Source: Escherichia virus TH06. Taken from it: a stretch of 64,000 bases of DNA. The stretch is taken from sequence record MT446386.1, one strand, 5' to 3'. Below are positions 176 to 58,961 of the stretch, in pieces. Every line of letters begins with the position of its first letter. Position 1 is the first letter of the stretch. The notes beneath the pieces are model-generated. The model worked only from the letters and a program-made list of their open reading frames with translations. It was not told where the DNA came from and did no database searches. Both the position numbers and the translations under genes were made by a program.

Positions 176-373
176 ATGAAAAAGTGGATTGTTCGTGTAC
201 ATGATAACACGACTGGAGAGTTAGTAGCTGTAGATTTTGTTAAGACTCGAGAGCACGCACGTAGGGTCAAAAATCAATACAAATCTACTTTTAGACTTAA
301 TAAGGTTACACTAGGAAAAGCTATCGTGAATAGTGAAGGTGCTTTTTGTGTTAACAGTAAGGTTTATTATTAA
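176..373 (+). CDS. small protein, tandem paralog family A (65 aa)
   Basis: Track ORF; stop overlaps next ATG (TAATG); shares TR..AR..K and C-terminal SKVYY-type motif with next two ORFs. Confidence 0.55.
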   Translation: MKKWIVRVHDNTTGELVAVDFVKTREHARRVKNQYKSTFRLNKVTLGKAIVNSEGAFCVNSKVYY

Positions 374-582
374 TGAGACCGATCACTATGAGACAATTTT
401 GGTTAGCAAAGATTAAGTGGGCATCAGGTGGTATGACTATGACTGCACTACCCACTCGTCAACAGGCTCGAGATTTTAAAAAGTCTATGTTCAATGTAGA
501 CTTAACTAAGAGCATCAGTATTCATAAGGCCAAGGAGTATTCTTCTGGTCGTGTTTATATCAGCGGAAAGGTACATTACTAA
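373..582 (+). CDS. small protein, tandem paralog family A (69 aa)
   Basis: Track ORF; translationally coupled; TRQQARDFKK and C-terminal GKVHY. Confidence 0.55.
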   Translation: MRPITMRQFWLAKIKWASGGMTMTALPTRQQARDFKKSMFNVDLTKSISIHKAKEYSSGRVYISGKVHY

Positions 583-791
583 TGAAAAAGATGTGGGCTA
601 TTCATGTTGTTTGGGATCTTGAGCAACACATGAGAAAAGATAACATCAAATTGTTTGACACTCGCAAAGAGGCTCGTATTGCTAAGAAACAGTTGAAGAC
701 TCTGGGCACAATAGTAAAAAGCGCTGACATACATCGCTGGTATGAAGACCCTAACACTGGTTCTTTTATGTCTAAAGTAATTTACTACTGA
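582..791 (+). CDS. small protein, tandem paralog family A (69 aa)
   Basis: Track ORF; TRKEARIAKK and C-terminal SKVIYY. Confidence 0.55.
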   Translation: MKKMWAIHVVWDLEQHMRKDNIKLFDTRKEARIAKKQLKTLGTIVKSADIHRWYEDPNTGSFMSKVIYY

Positions 792-815: not shown

Positions 816-824
816 AAATGTATA
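816..824 (+). promoter_or_regulatory. AAATGTATA element, 8/9 match to the TAATGTATA element seen upstream of other genes in this window
   Basis: Located about 40 nt upstream of ATG 864. Confidence 0.2.
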
Positions 825-863
825 TAGAGTACAATAAGAATTTGTATTTTACAGGAGAGAGTT

Positions 864-1193
864 ATGTTAGATTTGAGTAAAGTGGCCCCGCCCACTGAAG
901 AGATTACAAAATCCAAGGTGATGCAACAGTTTTATCATCGTGATATGCTTGGTCGCTTTATCAAGAATCGTGATGTTGTTGCTTGGTCTATTGGTAATCA
1001 GGGATATCTGTTGAAGGTTCTTCAGGTTACAGGCTCAACTGCTAAGCGAGTTAAGGTGTATGACCCTGAAATGGGGCGTTCTAAGTCAGTAGACCCACAG
1101 AACTGCATCGTAATTACCCAGCAGGTAATGGATAATATTGCACGTAACGTTGCTAACTCAGTTGAACTTGATGGAGAAAACCCAAATGCATAA
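864..1193 (+). CDS. hypothetical protein (109 aa)
   Basis: Track ORF with upstream GGAGAG. Confidence 0.5.
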   Translation: MLDLSKVAPPTEEITKSKVMQQFYHRDMLGRFIKNRDVVAWSIGNQGYLLKVLQVTGSTAKRVKVYDPEMGRSKSVDPQNCIVITQQVMDNIARNVANSVELDGENPNA

Positions 1194-1749
1194 GAATGTT
1201 TTTGATTTACCTGAGATTGGTCGTGACAGTTATAGTATGTTAGACCGGTCTGAGCTTTCAATCTCTCGCCTTGAAACAATGCAAGGCATGATTAGTGCAA
1301 ACAGCCTAGAACACATCCTGAGCTGCTTACAAGCTAACATGGAACTATTGCATATCAAAGCTAAAAACTACCACTGGAACGTCTCTGGTGCAGGATTTCA
1401 GGGTGTTCATGGTATGTTTGATGAGCTGGAAGATTACGCACGACAGGTAGGAGATCGTATTGCTGAACGTATGCGTTACCACTGCGTTAAAGTGGATGCT
1501 ACAGCAGCTAATTATCTCTCCCATGCTTGGTTCTCAGAGGGTAATGCTGATCTAGACATGGACGGTATGCTCTCTGATATGTGCATGACCTTGATGTGTA
1601 TTATTGAGAAGATGGATGAGTTTGATGGTGATTTAGCCACCTACCCTGTCGATCAGAGTATGCTTCAAGAAATTAATGAAGGTCTTGGCAAGTATTGCTA
1701 CTTCGTCAAGAGCAACATGTCCCATTCAAGTGGTGATGTGTCTTACTAA
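1186..1749 (+). CDS. Dps/ferritin-like protein
   Basis: Motifs HWNVSGAGFQGVHGMFDELEDYARQVGDRIAERM resemble the Dps ferroxidase region; start moved to ATG 1186 (GGAG 9 nt upstream), overlapping upstream stop. Confidence 0.6.
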   Translation: MHKNVFDLPEIGRDSYSMLDRSELSISRLETMQGMISANSLEHILSCLQANMELLHIKAKNYHWNVSGAGFQGVHGMFDELEDYARQVGDRIAERMRYHCVKVDATAANYLSHAWFSEGNADLDMDGMLSDMCMTLMCIIEKMDEFDGDLATYPVDQSMLQEINEGLGKYCYFVKSNMSHSSGDVSY

Positions 1750-1809: not shown

Positions 1810-1989
1810 ATGTTATCAGCAATCGTATGGGGTATTTGGGCTATCTTTATTGGTGGTGGTATTTATTGGGCTTCTGGTAAGCTTATTGAAGAAACTCCTG
1901 ATAAGAAAGGTGAGATTCAAACAGCATCAACTATCATGGTTATCGTAGCTGTTGTTATCCCGTTCCTGCTTCACCTCTTGACTGCATAA
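1810..1989 (+). CDS. small membrane protein, two predicted TM helices (59 aa)
   Basis: ATG 1810 after AAGGA; protein MLSAIVWGIWAIFIGGGIYW...IMVIVAVVIPFLLHLL; below the track length cut-off. Confidence 0.45.
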   Translation: MLSAIVWGIWAIFIGGGIYWASGKLIEETPDKKGEIQTASTIMVIVAVVIPFLLHLLTA

Positions 1990-1997
1990 GGATTTAC

Positions 1998-2273
1998 ATG
2001 TCTAAAGTAATTAAGTTTTATAGTGATCAGTGTGCTCCATGTAAAGCAATGGCTCCTACCTTTGAGAAGGTTGTTAAGGAGTTTGATGTAGAAGTGGAAG
2101 AGATTAACATCCTTGAAGGTGATGGTCGTGAACAAGCTGTTAAGTATGGTGTACGAAGCATCCCTGCTTTTGTTGTGCCTGACCGTAACAGTGGTGCACA
2201 CTACAGCCTCTCCGGTATGCAGACTGAAGCAAACCTGAAAGCATTTTTGGATACAGCTTTAGGTGTTAACTGA
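1998..2273 (+). CDS. thioredoxin-fold protein (CxxC)
   Basis: CAPC active-site-like motif and IPAFVV cis-Pro-like motif; 91 aa. Confidence 0.55.
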   Translation: MSKVIKFYSDQCAPCKAMAPTFEKVVKEFDVEVEEINILEGDGREQAVKYGVRSIPAFVVPDRNSGAHYSLSGMQTEANLKAFLDTALGVN

Positions 2274-2742
2274 TAAGATAAAAGAAGACCTAGCATATGA
2301 CCCTGATACTGGAATCTTTAGATGGAAGAATACTAAAGGTCGGAGAGTATCAGGGAACATTGCTGGGTGTGTCTCAACATTAGGTTACAGGTACATCTAT
2401 TGTGAAGGGAAATCTTACAGAGCATGTCGATTAGCTTGGTTTTTCTCTTATGGAAAGATGCCTGAGTTTGAGATTGATCACATCAACCAGATTAAACTGG
2501 ATGACTCTCTTAAAAACCTAAGAGATGTTGACCCATCTACAAACTGTCATAACAGAAAACAATACAATAGAGCCGGAAAAGCTGGAAAACTCCCAATGGG
2601 TGTTTACATTAGAGAGACGGCTAGTGGTACAAAATTCAGAGCTATCATCGGAGTTAACGGAAAGACTAAGCATTTAGGAACTTTCCACACTCCAGAGGAA
2701 GCAGAGATTGCTTATAACAAGGAGAAGTTGAAGTATGAATGA
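2263..2742 (+). CDS. HNH homing endonuclease with AP2-like DNA-binding domain
   Basis: EIDHINQIK...NLRDV...NCHNR HNH motif and C-terminal GVY..ETASGTKFRA...G.FHTPEEA; GTG start per track. Confidence 0.65.
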   Translation: MLTDKIKEDLAYDPDTGIFRWKNTKGRRVSGNIAGCVSTLGYRYIYCEGKSYRACRLAWFFSYGKMPEFEIDHINQIKLDDSLKNLRDVDPSTNCHNRKQYNRAGKAGKLPMGVYIRETASGTKFRAIIGVNGKTKHLGTFHTPEEAEIAYNKEKLKYE

Positions 2743-3391
2743 ACAATTACAAGCAACATTGATTGAAGCTATGGGCAGTGATAAAACCGTTGTTAATGCT
2801 GCAAGAGTTTCTTTTGGTGTTGTACGAGAGGGTGATTTGAATGATCGTGATACTCGGCTGATTAACTTCTTGGCTAGAGAGAAACACTGCACTCCGTTCC
2901 GTCATCCACAAGTGTCCTTTCGTTGTAAGGCTCCAATTGCAATCGCTCGTCAACTACAGAAGCATCAGGTTGGATTCTCGTGGAACGAAATGTCCCGGCG
3001 GTATAAAGATGGAGCAGTTGAAGTCTTCATCCCTAAAGAGATTTTTGCGAGACCTTCGGACCTCCATGCAGGTTCAGGGATTCAACTCATCGACGGAGAG
3101 CGAGCTGAAGCATTAATGCTGATTAACGATGCATATGAAGCTTCTCTAGCAGCATATGACAAGTTGATTGAATTTATTGCACCAGAGCAAGCTCGATTTG
3201 TTCTTCCTCAGGGGATGATCACTGAGTGGGTGTGGACTGGTTCTTTGTATGGCTGGTTTGAGTTGTGCCGTCAGCGACTCTCCTCTCACGCTCAATATGA
3301 AGTTCGAGTGTTTGCTAAATCTCTAGATGAAGAGATGGCTAAACTCTACCCAATCTCGTGGGCAGCTCTGAAGAAAACTTTGGAGAGTTAA
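2735..3391 (+). CDS. thyX: flavin-dependent thymidylate synthase (ThyX)-like protein, divergent motif
   Basis: HCTPFRH and KHQVGFSWNEMSRRY resemble the ThyX HxSPFEH / RHR...S.RY signature, with substitutions. Confidence 0.55.
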   Translation: MNEQLQATLIEAMGSDKTVVNAARVSFGVVREGDLNDRDTRLINFLAREKHCTPFRHPQVSFRCKAPIAIARQLQKHQVGFSWNEMSRRYKDGAVEVFIPKEIFARPSDLHAGSGIQLIDGERAEALMLINDAYEASLAAYDKLIEFIAPEQARFVLPQGMITEWVWTGSLYGWFELCRQRLSSHAQYEVRVFAKSLDEEMAKLYPISWAALKKTLES

Positions 3392-4021: not shown

Positions 4022-4187
4022 CTTCTGTAAGAAAGAGAAGACTGTCGCCAACTTTAAACCTAATCCTGTAACCGGTTTGACTCATGTCATGTGTCACTCT
4101 TGCAGGATATACCTTGAAACAAAGCACACCATTAACAGGTTGCACTATTATCACCCAACAACATTCAAATTTAAGGTTGTGAAATGA
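4002..4187 (+). CDS. small zinc-ribbon-like protein (61 aa)
   Basis: Internal ATG 4002 after GGAG; CSFC...CHSC; track ORF 3939 N-terminus overlaps previous gene. Confidence 0.4.
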   Translation: MEKKVCSFCKKEKTVANFKPNPVTGLTHVMCHSCRIYLETKHTINRLHYYHPTTFKFKVVK

Positions 4188-4513
4188 TTGACAGTAATAC
4201 ATTTAGGACTTCAAATGGAAGTGAGATAAGTCCCGCTGAAGTAATAAATCGGCACAGAAGGCAATTGATCATCCATTCCTATTTGTATTACTGGTTGGAT
4301 GACCCTATCTGGTCTGATGATAAATGGCAACAAGTTGCTAATGATCTAGTGGAGCTGCAAGCTCTGTATCCAGAGCCTACCGGAGTCTTTGACGCTGAGT
4401 TCAAAGATTGGGATGGTTCTACAGGAATGCATCTCCCACACAACGAGGCTGTTGCTTGTATGGCGACAGCTGTTTACAGGATTCATAAAGACATGAACCA
4501 TGAAGTGCTCTAG
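4184..4513 (+). CDS. hypothetical protein (109 aa)
   Basis: Track ORF, start overlaps upstream stop. Confidence 0.5.
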   Translation: MIDSNTFRTSNGSEISPAEVINRHRRQLIIHSYLYYWLDDPIWSDDKWQQVANDLVELQALYPEPTGVFDAEFKDWDGSTGMHLPHNEAVACMATAVYRIHKDMNHEVL

Positions 4514-5430: not shown

Positions 5431-5439
5431 TAATGTATA
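5431..5439 (+). promoter_or_regulatory. TAATGTATA element, candidate promoter for the phage-encoded sigma factor
   Basis: Exact 9-mer 37 nt upstream of ATG 5476; same 9-mer recurs upstream of three other genes. Confidence 0.4.
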
Positions 5440-11976: not shown

Positions 11977-12145
11977 TTTATCTCGCAGGTGGCTCCTGCC
12001 CTTCGGTACTTGCAAGGGATTCTGTGAATTGCCCAATATACAAGCCTGCAATAACTTTATCAGCTATACAATATATACATTACTAGTGTGATATATCTAC
12101 TACCAAAGATACTTATATTATATAGTACTCTTATCGGTATAAGCG

Positions 12146-12154
12146 TAATGTATA
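12146..12154 (+). promoter_or_regulatory. TAATGTATA element, candidate phage-sigma promoter
   Basis: Exact 9-mer about 60 nt upstream of ATG 12214. Confidence 0.4.

Positions 12155-13512: not shown

Positions 13513-13513
<1 letters not shown>
13253..13513 (+). CDS. putative lipoprotein in +1 frame overlapping the 3' part of the previous gene, o-spanin (Rz1)-like
   Basis: MRKLNQFFIMSALVMSMSAC lipobox-like signal, Pro-containing mature part with Cys; overlapped arrangement. Confidence 0.3.
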
Positions 13514-15005
<1,492 letters not shown>

Positions 15006-22330: not shown

Positions 22331-22339
22331 TATACATTA
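22331..22339 (-). promoter_or_regulatory. TAATGTATA element (minus strand)
   Basis: Plus-strand TATACATTA, about 39 nt upstream of start codon at 22292. Confidence 0.4.
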
Positions 22340-39874: not shown

Positions 39875-39883
39875 TATACATTA
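39875..39883 (-). promoter_or_regulatory. TAATGTATA element (minus strand)
   Basis: Plus-strand TATACATTA, 34 nt upstream of the HNH start. Confidence 0.4.
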
Positions 39884-58885: not shown

Positions 58886-58961
58886 GCGCTCTTAGCTCAA
58901 TGGATAGAGCAGTAGCCTTCTAAGCTATTGGTTACAGGTTCGAGTCCTGTAGGGCGCACCA
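58886..58961 (+). tRNA. tRNA-Arg (anticodon UCU)
   Basis: 76-nt cloverleaf: acceptor GCGCTCT/AGGGCGC, D-arm GCTC/GAGC, anticodon stem GTAGC/GCTAT with loop CTTCTAA, T-arm ACAGG-TTCGAGT-CCTGT, encoded CCA. Confidence 0.8.

What the first reader, a model, noticed from the sequence alone, without database searches (positions are those of the whole stretch)
1186..1749. Phage-encoded Dps/ferritin-like protein
The product carries a Dps-like ferroxidase-region signature. Dps homologs are not typical phage cargo; here it sits with thioredoxin-like and ThyX-like genes, suggesting redox or iron management during infection, or DNA protection.
Basis: partly seen in the sequence, partly recalled or inferred. 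Interest (0 to 1): 0.45.

Follow-up and report, generated by a model that had tools for sequence, protein, structure and literature searches.

The report
Kuravirus phage Dps mini-ferritin gene
The gene is a real, well-conserved phage copy of the bacterial iron-detoxifying protein Dps. It was already noted in the literature on this phage group (SU10/phiEco32-like coliphages), so it is a correct but ordinary finding whose role in infection is still untested.

Summary
Confirmed. Window 1186-1749 (+) is a 187-aa ORF in a Kuravirus (phiEco32/SU10-like) E. coli podophage. It passes Pfam Ferritin, matches only Dps proteins in the PDB, and models as the Dps four-helix bundle with the BC helix. All five inter-subunit ferroxidase ligands are kept (H63, H75, D79 / D90, E94 = E. 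coli Dps H51, H63, D67 / D78, E82), as are K60 and W64. These residues are invariant across the phage clade, and dN/dS is about 0.06-0.08.

It is the second gene of a middle operon. A phage-sigma promoter motif lies at 816-826, and the start codon overlaps the upstream gene by 8 nt. The operon belongs to the replication and nucleotide-metabolism module (dCTP deaminase, thioredoxin, ThyX, PhoH, DNA polymerase).

It is not new. An identical protein is in GenBank. The SU10 paper (2014) called the orthologue a DPS-domain protein, a core gene of C3 phages, and detected it by mass spectrometry. The Privateer paper found its homologue in CsCl-purified virions.

The most likely role is a dodecameric cage that oxidises and stores iron, limiting Fenton damage during phage DNA synthesis. 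DNA binding is not predicted: the protein has pI 4.7 and no basic tail. Several records, including RefSeq, mislabel the gene "integrase". Low novelty, moderate-low interest.

The parts
1186..1749 (+). Dps-family mini-ferritin gene (187 aa, 21.2 kDa, pI 4.72). Predicted helices: A 41-65, B 71-98, BC 107-112, C 125-150, D 154-177. Clade-specific additions: an N-terminal extension (motif MH(K/N)NVFDLP, a variable linker, helix 18-37) and a C-terminal tail ending in Tyr.
   Evidence: 100% identical to proteins of phages ES17 and CHD5UKE1. dN/dS is 0.075 against SU10.
1372..1467 (+). Segment encoding the ferroxidase centre. Codons: H63 (1372-1374), W64 (1375-1377), H75 (1408-1410), D79 (1420-1422), D90 (1453-1455), E94 (1465-1467). 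K60 lies just upstream at 1363-1365.
   Evidence: The codons were read directly. Equivalence to E. coli Dps K48/H51/W52/H63/D67/D78/E82 comes from the alignment, using the E. coli sequence verified against PDB 1f30. The residues are invariant in alignment A1.
1173..1176 (+). Shine-Dalgarno-like GGAG, 9 nt upstream of the ATG at 1186.
   Evidence: Sequence.
864..1193 (+). Upstream gene (SU10 CDS68-like, 109 aa), first gene of the middle operon. Its stop overlaps the Dps start by 8 nt. Predicted SH3-like five-stranded barrel plus a C-terminal helix; function unknown.
   Evidence: PHROG 10984 at 1.9e-64 and no Pfam hit. Homologues sit immediately upstream of Dps in Privateer and LAh_9 (31-37% identity). 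AF2 model pLDDT 78. Only weak KOW/PWWP/Tudor fold matches, E>=5e-3.
816..826 (+). Phage-sigma (gp36-type) middle promoter motif AAATGTATATA, about 40 nt upstream of the ATG at 864.
   Evidence: One mismatch to tAATGTAtA, at the weakly conserved first base. Conserved in SU10 and EK010, and present as TAATGTATATA in a relative whose Dps is 53% identical. phiEco32 gene 68 has an experimentally mapped gp36-dependent promoter (PMC8948821).
781..808 (+). Sigma-70-like promoter candidate TTTACT-16-TATGAT in the same intergenic region.
   Evidence: Consensus scan gives 9/12 matches, which is not above the shuffled expectation. The SU10 paper describes a sigma-70 promoter upstream of CDS68.
1810..1989 (+). 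Downstream 59-aa predicted membrane protein (context).
   Evidence: PHROG 9296 at 3.6e-34. Hydrophobic sequence.
1998..2273 (+). Thioredoxin with a CAPC active site (context).
   Evidence: PF00085 at 2.2e-13. TIGR01068 at 4.6e-13, below its cut-off.
2735..3391 (+). Flavin-dependent thymidylate synthase ThyX (context).
   Evidence: PF02511 at 1.1e-43.

Best explanation
The ORF encodes a genuine, divergent Dps-family mini-ferritin that is a core middle gene of Kuravirus-type prolate podophages.

Shown here:
- The Dps fold.
- All five ligands of the inter-subunit di-iron ferroxidase centre, plus the conserved Lys and Trp.
- Strong purifying selection.
- Position as the second, translationally coupled gene behind a conserved phage-sigma promoter motif.
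- A constant location in the replication and nucleotide-metabolism module.

Shown by others: the SU10 orthologue is made during infection (mass spectrometry).

Inferred from established Dps biochemistry: twelve subunits form a hollow cage. Fe(II) enters, is oxidised at the dimer-interface sites (preferentially by H2O2) and is stored as a ferric core. This removes both Fenton reactants while the phage copies its DNA and remodels dNTP pools. Those pools are handled by ThyX (a flavoenzyme), thioredoxin and dCTP deaminase here, and by oxygen-sensitive class III ribonucleotide reductase in relatives.

The acidic protein has no basic tail, so direct DNA coating is not expected for this version. The phage supplies its own copy because host Dps is scarce in growing cells (background knowledge).
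For: Family identity. Ligands H63/H75/D79 and D90/E94, with K60 and W64, are aligned to verified E. coli Dps and are invariant. The model has helices A, B, BC, C and D. dN/dS is 0.075 overall, and 0.03 in the core against 0.19 in the N-terminus. The gene is present in 97 of about 98 related phage records. The promoter motif and its conservation are, with literature support. Protein was detected for SU10 CDS67 at 35.8% coverage with 6 peptides. The module context recurs in Privateer, SE131, LAh_9 and metagenomic relatives; Dps lies directly next to ThyX in SE131 and L008 and near NrdD in L006/L007/L010/L011, with the anaerobic RNR genes a few genes upstream of it in LAh_9. Acidic character and absence of a basic tail.
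Against: No biochemical or genetic test of any phage Dps was found in seven literature searches. Dodecamer formation, iron uptake and peroxide use are inferred, not shown. Pfam aligns only residues 55-108, and NCBIfam Dps equivalog scores are far below their cut-offs (34.9 against 114 bits), so the C-terminal half is strongly diverged. The clade-specific N-terminal motif and helix and the C-terminal tail are unexplained by a simple iron-cage role. One close relative of a Dps-bearing contig lacks the gene between ThyX and the ATP-cone gene (L009 against L008), so it can be dispensable. The link between ThyX/RNR chemistry and Dps rests on gene proximity only.
Confidence: 0.6

Rival explanations
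1. DNA-coating role. The protein binds phage DNA as E. coli Dps binds the nucleoid. It would compact or shield replicating or concatemeric DNA from host nucleases and restriction enzymes, with iron chemistry secondary.
For: Database labels read 'DNA-binding protein'. The non-Kuravirus homologues have short basic N-termini, net +2 to +3 (Privateer MARDMIRSRPSLRR, SE131 MLGARPKRP). The Privateer homologue co-purified with CsCl-banded, DNA-filled virions. The N-terminal extra helix 18-37 recalls the N-terminal helix needed for DNA binding in Lactococcus lactis Dps (my recollection, not tested here).
Against: The window protein has pI 4.72, with 29 acidic against 14 basic residues, and an N-terminal 40 aa of net charge -2. 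The 'DNA-binding' label is inherited from the family name and not from an assay. The invariant residues are the iron ligands, not basic surface residues.
Confidence: 0.15
2. Iron reservoir or iron hijack. The cage captures host iron either to supply phage or host iron-dependent enzymes needed for dNTP synthesis, such as the [4Fe-4S] activase of class III RNR in relatives, or to starve host processes.
For: The gene consistently co-locates with nucleotide-metabolism genes. These include NrdD, NrdG-type and ATP-cone genes in LAh_9, Privateer, SE131, L006-L008 and L010. The iron ligands are intact.
Against: The part of the Kuravirus genome in the window shows no RNR or other obvious iron enzyme in this module. 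Dps proteins are generally detoxifiers rather than delivery systems (background knowledge). The hypothesis cannot be separated from the main one by sequence alone.
Confidence: 0.1
3. Virion-associated cargo. The Dps cage, or its subunits, is packaged in or bound to the long prolate head, for example with the DNA, and is a structural or delivered component.
For: The Privateer Dps homologue was detected by MS in CsCl-purified virions alongside only about ten structural proteins. The gene is core to all C3-morphotype podophages. Clade-specific terminal peptides could be targeting signals. BFVD contains Dps-fold domains in proteins named 'Prohead protease' (unverified).
Against: The SU10 MS sample was only PEG-precipitated and also contained DNA polymerase, thioredoxin and PhoH. 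The SU10 cryo-EM and MS study lists capsid, portal, tail and ejection proteins gp20-24 and does not mention Dps. The gene lies in the middle module, not the late structural module. A roughly 9-nm cage could not pass the portal (background knowledge). Iron-loaded or DNA-bound Dps could co-band with phage in CsCl.
Confidence: 0.07
4. Integrase, as annotated in several GenBank and RefSeq records of the identical or near-identical protein.
For: The only support is the product name in the records.
Against: No integrase or recombinase domain was found in any of 18 family members; only PF00210 matched. The fold and all structural neighbours are Dps. The phage group is strictly lytic according to the cited literature.
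Confidence: 0.01

Closest known systems
SU10 CDS67 / phiEco32-group orthologues (Kuravirus 'DNA-binding protein with DPS domain'); PHROG 3636
   Same: Same gene. It is about 97-98% identical to SU10 (97% in the BFVD match; 3-4 differences seen in the printed N-terminal 30 residues) and 100% identical to ES17 and CHD5UKE1. Position, length and neighbours match. It has been described as a middle gene, conserved in all C3 phages and detected by MS (PMC4281155).
   Different: Nothing substantive. The window additionally carries an HNH endonuclease between thioredoxin and ThyX that SU10 lacks.
Dps homologues of other prolate podophages (Proteus phage Privateer QIN94861, Salmonella SE131, Cronobacter GAP52, Aeromonas LAh_9)
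   Same: 31-45% identity, all seven key residues conserved, and the same nucleotide-metabolism module. The gp68-like gene lies directly upstream in Privateer and LAh_9.
   Different: These proteins are shorter (146-156 aa), with short basic N-termini. They lack the roughly 40-aa Kuravirus N-terminal extension and the C-terminal tail. They are followed by an ATP-cone gene rather than the 59-aa membrane protein.
Bacterial Dps with solved structures: B. anthracis Dlp-2 (1jig), M. smegmatis Dps2 (2z90/4m35), B. subtilis MrgA (2chp), S. aureus Dps (2d5k)
   Same: These are the best sequence and fold matches: E 3e-9 to 1e-8, 22-27% identity, TM 0.82-0.91 and rmsd 1.1-2.4 A. They share the helix A-B-BC-C-D topology and ligand pattern.
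   Different: They are cellular proteins. The phage protein has extra termini, is unusually rich in Met and Cys (15 Met, 5 Cys), and has a C-terminal half too diverged for Pfam to align.
E. coli (host) Dps
   Same: Same fold (6b0d, TM 0.81, 21% identity) and identical ligand spacing H-12-H-4-D-11-D-4-E.
   Different: It is not a recent host capture. phmmer E is only about 0.1, the NCBIfam Dps equivalog scores 34.9 bits against a cut-off of 114, and E. coli Dps used as a tblastn query does not retrieve Kuravirus genes. The host protein has a Lys-rich DNA-binding N-terminus (net +3), whereas the phage protein's is -2.
Dps genes reported in other phages (Lactobacillus plantarum myophages; gut 'Gratiaviridae' and others; Streptomyces phages)
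   Same: Independent examples of Dps as phage cargo, placed near DNA-metabolism genes and proposed to limit oxidative damage (PMC6669764, PMC8008677).
   Different: They are separate lineages, at most about 28% identical where detectable, in unrelated phages and hosts. Like this one, none has been characterised experimentally.

Membership tests
Dps family (dodecameric mini-ferritins; Pfam PF00210 Ferritin-like, Dps branch) | Sequence match to the family model above the curated threshold | tested here: met
   PF00210 scores 31.1 bits against a gathering cut-off of 24.5. All 18 clade members match, best 3.4e-11. The clade profile retrieves 3308 representatives at E<=1e-3, and each of the eight sampled matched PF00210.
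Dps family (dodecameric mini-ferritins; Pfam PF00210 Ferritin-like, Dps branch) | Four-helix bundle with a short BC helix in the long B-C loop and no fifth C-terminal E helix | tested here: met
   The AF2 model (pLDDT 81) has helices 41-65, 71-98, 107-112, 125-150 and 154-177. The top 50 Foldseek PDB hits are all Dps or Dps-like proteins.
Dps family (dodecameric mini-ferritins; Pfam PF00210 Ferritin-like, Dps branch) | Inter-subunit ferroxidase ligands: His, His, Asp from one subunit and Asp, Glu from the two-fold partner (E. coli H51, H63, D67 / D78, E82), plus conserved K48 and W52 | tested here: met
   H63, H75, D79 / D90, E94 with K60 and W64, in an alignment to the verified E. coli Dps sequence. 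They are invariant in A1.
Dps family (dodecameric mini-ferritins; Pfam PF00210 Ferritin-like, Dps branch) | Assembly into a 12-mer cage with 23 symmetry | not testable with these tools
   Only monomer prediction is available. This needs SEC-MALS, EM or multimer modelling.
Dps family (dodecameric mini-ferritins; Pfam PF00210 Ferritin-like, Dps branch) | Fe(II) oxidation by H2O2 or O2 and storage of a ferric core | not testable with these tools
   This is a biochemical assay, and none was found in the literature for any phage Dps.
DNA-binding subclass of Dps (E. coli Dps-like) | Flexible Lys/Arg-rich N- or C-terminal tail giving non-specific DNA binding | tested here: not met
   The N-terminal 40 aa have net charge -2, the C-terminal tail SNMSHSSGDVSY has no basic residue, and the whole protein has pI 4.72. 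Many true Dps proteins also lack this feature, so it does not affect family membership.
Orthologue (equivalog) of enterobacterial Dps, NCBIfam NF006975 | Score above the equivalog cut-off (114 bits) | tested here: not met
   34.9 bits, covering residues 50-96 only.
24-mer ferritin / bacterioferritin | Intra-subunit di-iron site, fifth (E) helix, and best similarity to ferritins or Bfr | tested here: not met
   The ligand pattern and spacing are the Dps inter-subunit type. There is no E helix. No ferritin or Bfr appears among the top 50 structural hits or among the listed sequence hits, apart from a designed Dps-bacterioferritin fusion chain (5xgo) and an entry deposited as 'putative bacterioferritin' (3kwo).
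Phage integrase (tyrosine or serine recombinase), as labelled in several records | Recombinase catalytic domain | tested here: not met
   No such Pfam domain in the window protein or in any of 18 homologues. The RefSeq 'integrase' CDS is this same ORF.

The most novel reading that the evidence does not exclude
The Kuravirus Dps may be more than a free iron cage. Its clade-specific, conserved N-terminal peptide (MH(K/N)NVFDLP, a variable linker, then a helix) and its C-terminal tail ending in Tyr would be displayed twelve-fold on the cage surface. They could tether the cage to a phage structure such as replicating DNA, the T7-like polymerase/thioredoxin replisome, or the inside of the very long prolate head. 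In that case Dps would be a virion-associated or replisome-associated protector. This would explain why it is core to all C3-morphotype podophages and why it appeared in CsCl-purified Privateer virions. A capsid-enclosed ferritin-like protein would parallel encapsulins.
Probability: 0.1. Interest if true: 0.6.

Novelty: already known. Interest (0 to 1): 0.22.

Why it matters
As a discovery it adds little. The gene, its Dps domain and its conservation in this phage group have been published, and identical sequences are in GenBank.

Three practical points do matter.

(1) Several records, including RefSeq entries, label this protein 'integrase'. That label could wrongly flag these strictly lytic, therapy-candidate phages as temperate. 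The evidence here shows it is a Dps.

(2) The common label 'DNA-binding protein' is not supported by the sequence of the Kuravirus version. An iron and peroxide detoxifying cage is the better-supported description.

(3) No phage Dps has been tested experimentally. This one is abundant, promoter-proximal, under strong purifying selection, and sits in a genetically tractable E. coli phage. It is therefore a convenient model for asking why lytic phages carry their own mini-ferritin.

Tried and rejected
(1) Intrinsic terminator or attenuator in the 60-nt spacer after the gene (1750-1809). The RNA fold is no better than shuffles (z -0.52) and the scan found none. Rejected.

(2) The upstream gp68-like protein as an obligate Dps partner. 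It lies adjacent in Kuravirus, Privateer, LAh_9 and L006. It is separated from Dps in L008 and persists without a Dps in L009. Its model is an SH3-like barrel with only weak KOW/PWWP/Tudor matches. Left as unknown.

(3) The N-terminal FDLP-type motif as a docking peptide shared with other phage proteins. No other plausible ORF in the window carries it.

(4) Dps fused to prohead protease. This was suggested by BFVD protein names. The long Dps-containing proteins I could reach (P0133: Ferritin + DUF6321; P0096) lie on contigs too short for context and hit only unknown-function PHROGs. Unverified.

(5) P0032 is a 1156-aa 'hit' with 20 repeats of a degenerate ferroxidase segment. It looks like a tandem-repeat assembly artefact and was ignored.

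(6) Recent capture from the host. Rejected because similarity to E. coli Dps is marginal.

(7) Reverse-strand or alternative-frame ORFs under the gene are at most 85 aa, and the family searches pointed only to the Dps frame.

(8) Seven literature searches found no functional study of any phage Dps.

Full report
**What the window is.** The first 6 kb match 98 phage records by megablast, 68 of them at 90% identity or more. Nearly all are Escherichia or Shigella phages of the Kuravirus / Gordonclarkvirinae group (PGN6866, SU10, TH38, ShigP1 and others). These are lytic podophages with very long prolate (C3) heads. GC skew and the ORF map show a plus-strand block at 1 to about 17,300, then a minus-strand structural block, then another plus-strand block. 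The first block carries thioredoxin, an HNH endonuclease, ThyX, an NAD-ligase Ia domain, PhoH, a family-A DNA polymerase, a Macro-domain protein and a 5'-3' exonuclease. In SU10 it continues upstream into dCTP deaminase, an exonuclease and the primase-helicase. This is the 'middle' replication and nucleotide-metabolism module of the phiEco32 group.

**The observation.** The ORF exists exactly as stated, from ATG 1186 to TAA 1749, encoding 187 aa. The mechanical ORF begins at a TTG at 1138. However, GGAG sits 9 nt before the ATG at 1186, and SU10, EK010 and CHD5UKE1 all annotate the same start. The ATG overlaps the stop of the preceding 109-aa gene (864-1193) by 8 nt, which is the usual arrangement for translational coupling.

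**Family identity.**
- Pfam gives a single hit, Ferritin-like PF00210, at 31.1 bits. This is above the 24.5-bit gathering score but covers only residues 55-108.
- PHROG 3636 ('DNA binding protein') matches at 3e-55 over the whole core.
- A phmmer search of PDB sequences lists almost exclusively Dps and Dps-like proteins; the one exception among the 60 listed is a marginal NTF2-like hit at E 0.59. The best are M. smegmatis Dps2, B. subtilis MrgA and B. anthracis Dlp-2 at 3e-9 to 1e-8.
- An AlphaFold2 model built on 18 clade members (pLDDT 81, pTM 0.72) has helices 41-65, 71-98, 107-112, 125-150 and 154-177. This is the Dps A-B-BC-C-D topology. It also has a lower-confidence extra helix at 18-37 and disordered ends.
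- All top 50 Foldseek hits in the PDB are Dps or Dps-like proteins (TM 0.71-0.93 on the target; rmsd 1.1-2.4 A for the closest).
- A profile of the clade run against 1.84 billion representatives finds 7 proteins at 1e-30 or better, 188 at 1e-10 and 3308 at 1e-3. The phage proteins are therefore a small, divergent clade embedded in the large Dps family.
- NCBIfam Dps equivalogs are hit far below their cut-offs (34.9 against 114 bits). The protein is a Dps-family member but not an orthologue of the host protein.

**Metal ligands.** I verified my copy of the E. coli Dps sequence against PDB 1f30 and found it identical over 167 residues. I then aligned it with the window protein and three distant phage homologues. 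E. coli K48, H51, W52, H63, D67, D78 and E82 correspond to K60, H63, W64, H75, D79, D90 and E94, with identical spacing. All seven are also kept in Privateer, SE131 and LAh_9. In the 18-sequence clade alignment (down to 48% identity) these seven are among the invariant columns. The codons can be read directly at 1363-1467. Nei-Gojobori estimates give dN/dS of 0.075 against SU10 and about 0.06 against EK010. The helical core is at 0.03 and the N-terminal 40 residues at 0.19.

**Expression.** The 72-nt spacer before the upstream gene contains AAATGTATATA at 816-826. This matches the single-element promoter tAATGTAtA recognised by the phage sigma factor gp36. The motif is conserved in SU10 and EK010, and it appears as a perfect TAATGTATATA in a metagenomic relative whose Dps is only 53% identical. 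Published work maps a gp36-dependent promoter in front of phiEco32 gene 68 and places SU10 CDS25-68 in the middle class (PMC8948821, PMC4281155). Dps is thus the second gene of a middle transcription unit. [quoted passage not shown] That sample was only PEG-precipitated, so the result proves expression and not virion association. No terminator follows the gene.

**Context across relatives.** In Privateer, SE131, LAh_9 and metagenomic contigs the Dps gene always lies in the same module: primase-helicase, exonuclease, dCTP deaminase, thioredoxin, the gp68-like gene, Dps, ThyX, and an ATP-cone protein and/or class III ribonucleotide reductase. Dps is directly downstream of ThyX in SE131 and L008. 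The gp68-like gene is homologous across these phages (31-37% identity). It models as an SH3-like barrel plus a helix, with only weak KOW/PWWP/Tudor similarity. It is not always adjacent to Dps, and in L009 it persists where no Dps lies between ThyX and the ATP-cone gene. I therefore do not treat it as an obligate partner.

**How it most likely works.** From the anatomy and established Dps biochemistry, the protein should form a 12-subunit cage. H63/H75/D79 of one subunit and D90/E94 of its two-fold partner would bind two Fe(II) ions. These would be oxidised, preferentially by H2O2, and deposited as a ferric core. This would lower both Fenton reactants at the time the phage replicates its DNA and rewires dNTP synthesis. 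Fold, ligands, selection, timing and context are shown. Oligomer state, iron chemistry and physiological benefit are inferred.

Direct DNA binding is not predicted for this version. It has pI 4.72, 29 acidic against 14 basic residues, and an N-terminal tail of net charge -2, compared with +3 for E. coli Dps and +2 to +3 for the shorter Privateer, SE131 and LAh_9 proteins.

The rivals considered are a DNA-coating role, an iron reservoir, and virion cargo. They rest mainly on labels, gene proximity and the detection of the Privateer homologue in CsCl-purified virions. The SU10 cryo-EM and MS study of virions does not mention Dps and assigns gp20-24 as the ejection proteins.

**Unexplained features.**
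- The Kuravirus-type clade has a conserved N-terminal peptide (MH(K/N)NVFDLP), a variable linker, a helix with invariant R28, and a C-terminal tail that usually ends in Tyr. The shorter homologues lack all of these.
- The protein is unusually rich in Met (15) and Cys (5), including a conserved G-M-L-x-D-M-C-M-T-L stretch in helix C.
- The motif is not shared with other ORFs in the window.

**Comparison with what is known, and novelty.** The identical protein is already in GenBank (ES17, CHD5UKE1). The SU10 paper (2014) described CDS67 as a DNA-binding protein with a DPS domain, conserved in all five C3 phages then known. The Privateer paper (2021) annotated a 'DNA-binding Dps family protein' and noted homologues in Kuravirus. 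Dps genes have also been reported in Lactobacillus phages and in gut phages.

With this protein as a tblastn query, 138 of 50,697 phage records match. With E. coli Dps as the query, 131 largely different records match, mostly Streptomyces, Lactobacillus and Clostridium phages. Dps is therefore rare but recurrent phage cargo, acquired several times, and it is a core gene in this lineage. I found no experimental study of any phage Dps. I rate the finding correct, already known, and of modest interest.

**A useful by-product.** The same ORF is named 'integrase' in RefSeq NC_070989 and in a number of other records. No family member has any recombinase domain. This is an annotation error that matters for phages being considered for therapy.

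Noticed in passing
window 1186-1749; L005 601-1164 (NC_070989.1): The identical ORF is annotated 'integrase' in RefSeq NC_070989.1 and in other records (ES17, EC.W14-3, EcoN5, IMEP8, PE006, IME267 and others). Only a Ferritin/Dps domain is present. The label is a propagated mis-annotation that could wrongly suggest a temperate lifestyle.
   Followed up: yes
window 864-1193 (+): The conserved 109-aa protein upstream of Dps (SU10 CDS68-like, PHROG 10984) has homologues in Privateer, LAh_9, Aeromonas and Salmonella phages. It is predicted to be an SH3-like five-stranded barrel plus a C-terminal helix, with an invariant H-R-D...W...P-x-N...Q...N pattern. There are only weak KOW/PWWP/Tudor fold matches, and the function is unknown.
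   Followed up: partly
window 176-373, 373-582, 582-791 (+): Three back-to-back small ORFs (65-69 aa) share a weak common pattern (W4, T-R-x-x-A-R-x-x-K, C-terminal Y-Y/H-Y; 22-24% identity). They look like a diverged tandem triplication between dCTP deaminase and the middle promoter.
   Followed up: partly
window 2263-2742 (+): An HNH_3 homing-type endonuclease (PHROG 99, 3.5e-54) is wedged between thioredoxin and ThyX and overlaps both neighbours by a few bases. SU10 has the two genes adjacent with no insert, so this is a mobile insertion that varies among Kuraviruses.
   Followed up: partly
window 4184-4513 (+): The 109-aa product annotated 'DNA ligase' in related records is only the N-terminal Ia (NAD+-binding) domain of NAD-dependent ligases (PF22745, 6.8e-35). 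It has no adenylation or OB domains, so it cannot be a ligase on its own. It may modulate host LigA or NAD metabolism.
   Followed up: no
window 1186-1749 (residues 128-136 and throughout): The Dps is unusually rich in Met and Cys (15 Met, 5 Cys, against 4 and 0 in E. coli Dps). It has a clade-conserved GMLxDMCMTL stretch in helix C that the Privateer, SE131 and LAh_9 homologues lack.
   Followed up: no
L009 vs L008 (metagenomic relatives): Two closely related contigs differ by the presence (L008 5741-6187) or absence (L009) of the Dps gene between ThyX and the ATP-cone gene. The gene can therefore be lost or gained as a single cassette.
   Followed up: no
BFVD hits A0A6J7XDU5, A0A6J7WPK9, A0A6J7WIS1; P0133 (L013 61-1281): Dps-fold domains occur inside larger proteins of uncultured Caudovirales named 'Prohead protease', and fused to DUF6321 in P0133. 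If real, some phages may target a Dps domain into capsids. This could not be verified because the contigs are too short.
   Followed up: partly
window 5431-5439, 12146-12154 (+); 12074-12082, 22331-22339, 39875-39883 (-): Exact copies of the phage-sigma promoter element TAATGTATA sit at intergenic positions that fit the published middle and late promoters (after PhoH; a divergent pair near 12.1 kb; ahead of structural operons).
   Followed up: partly
window 13513-13953 (+): A Macro-domain protein (PF01661, 1.3e-10) lies in the middle module. It is a possible ADP-ribose-processing enzyme and may be relevant to counter-defence.
   Followed up: no
window 58886-58961 (+): A single tRNA-Arg (anticodon TCT) gene.
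   Followed up: no
P0032 (representative library hit): A 1156-aa predicted protein is made of about 20 tandem copies of a degenerate Dps ferroxidase segment. It is most likely an assembly or repeat artefact.
   Followed up: no
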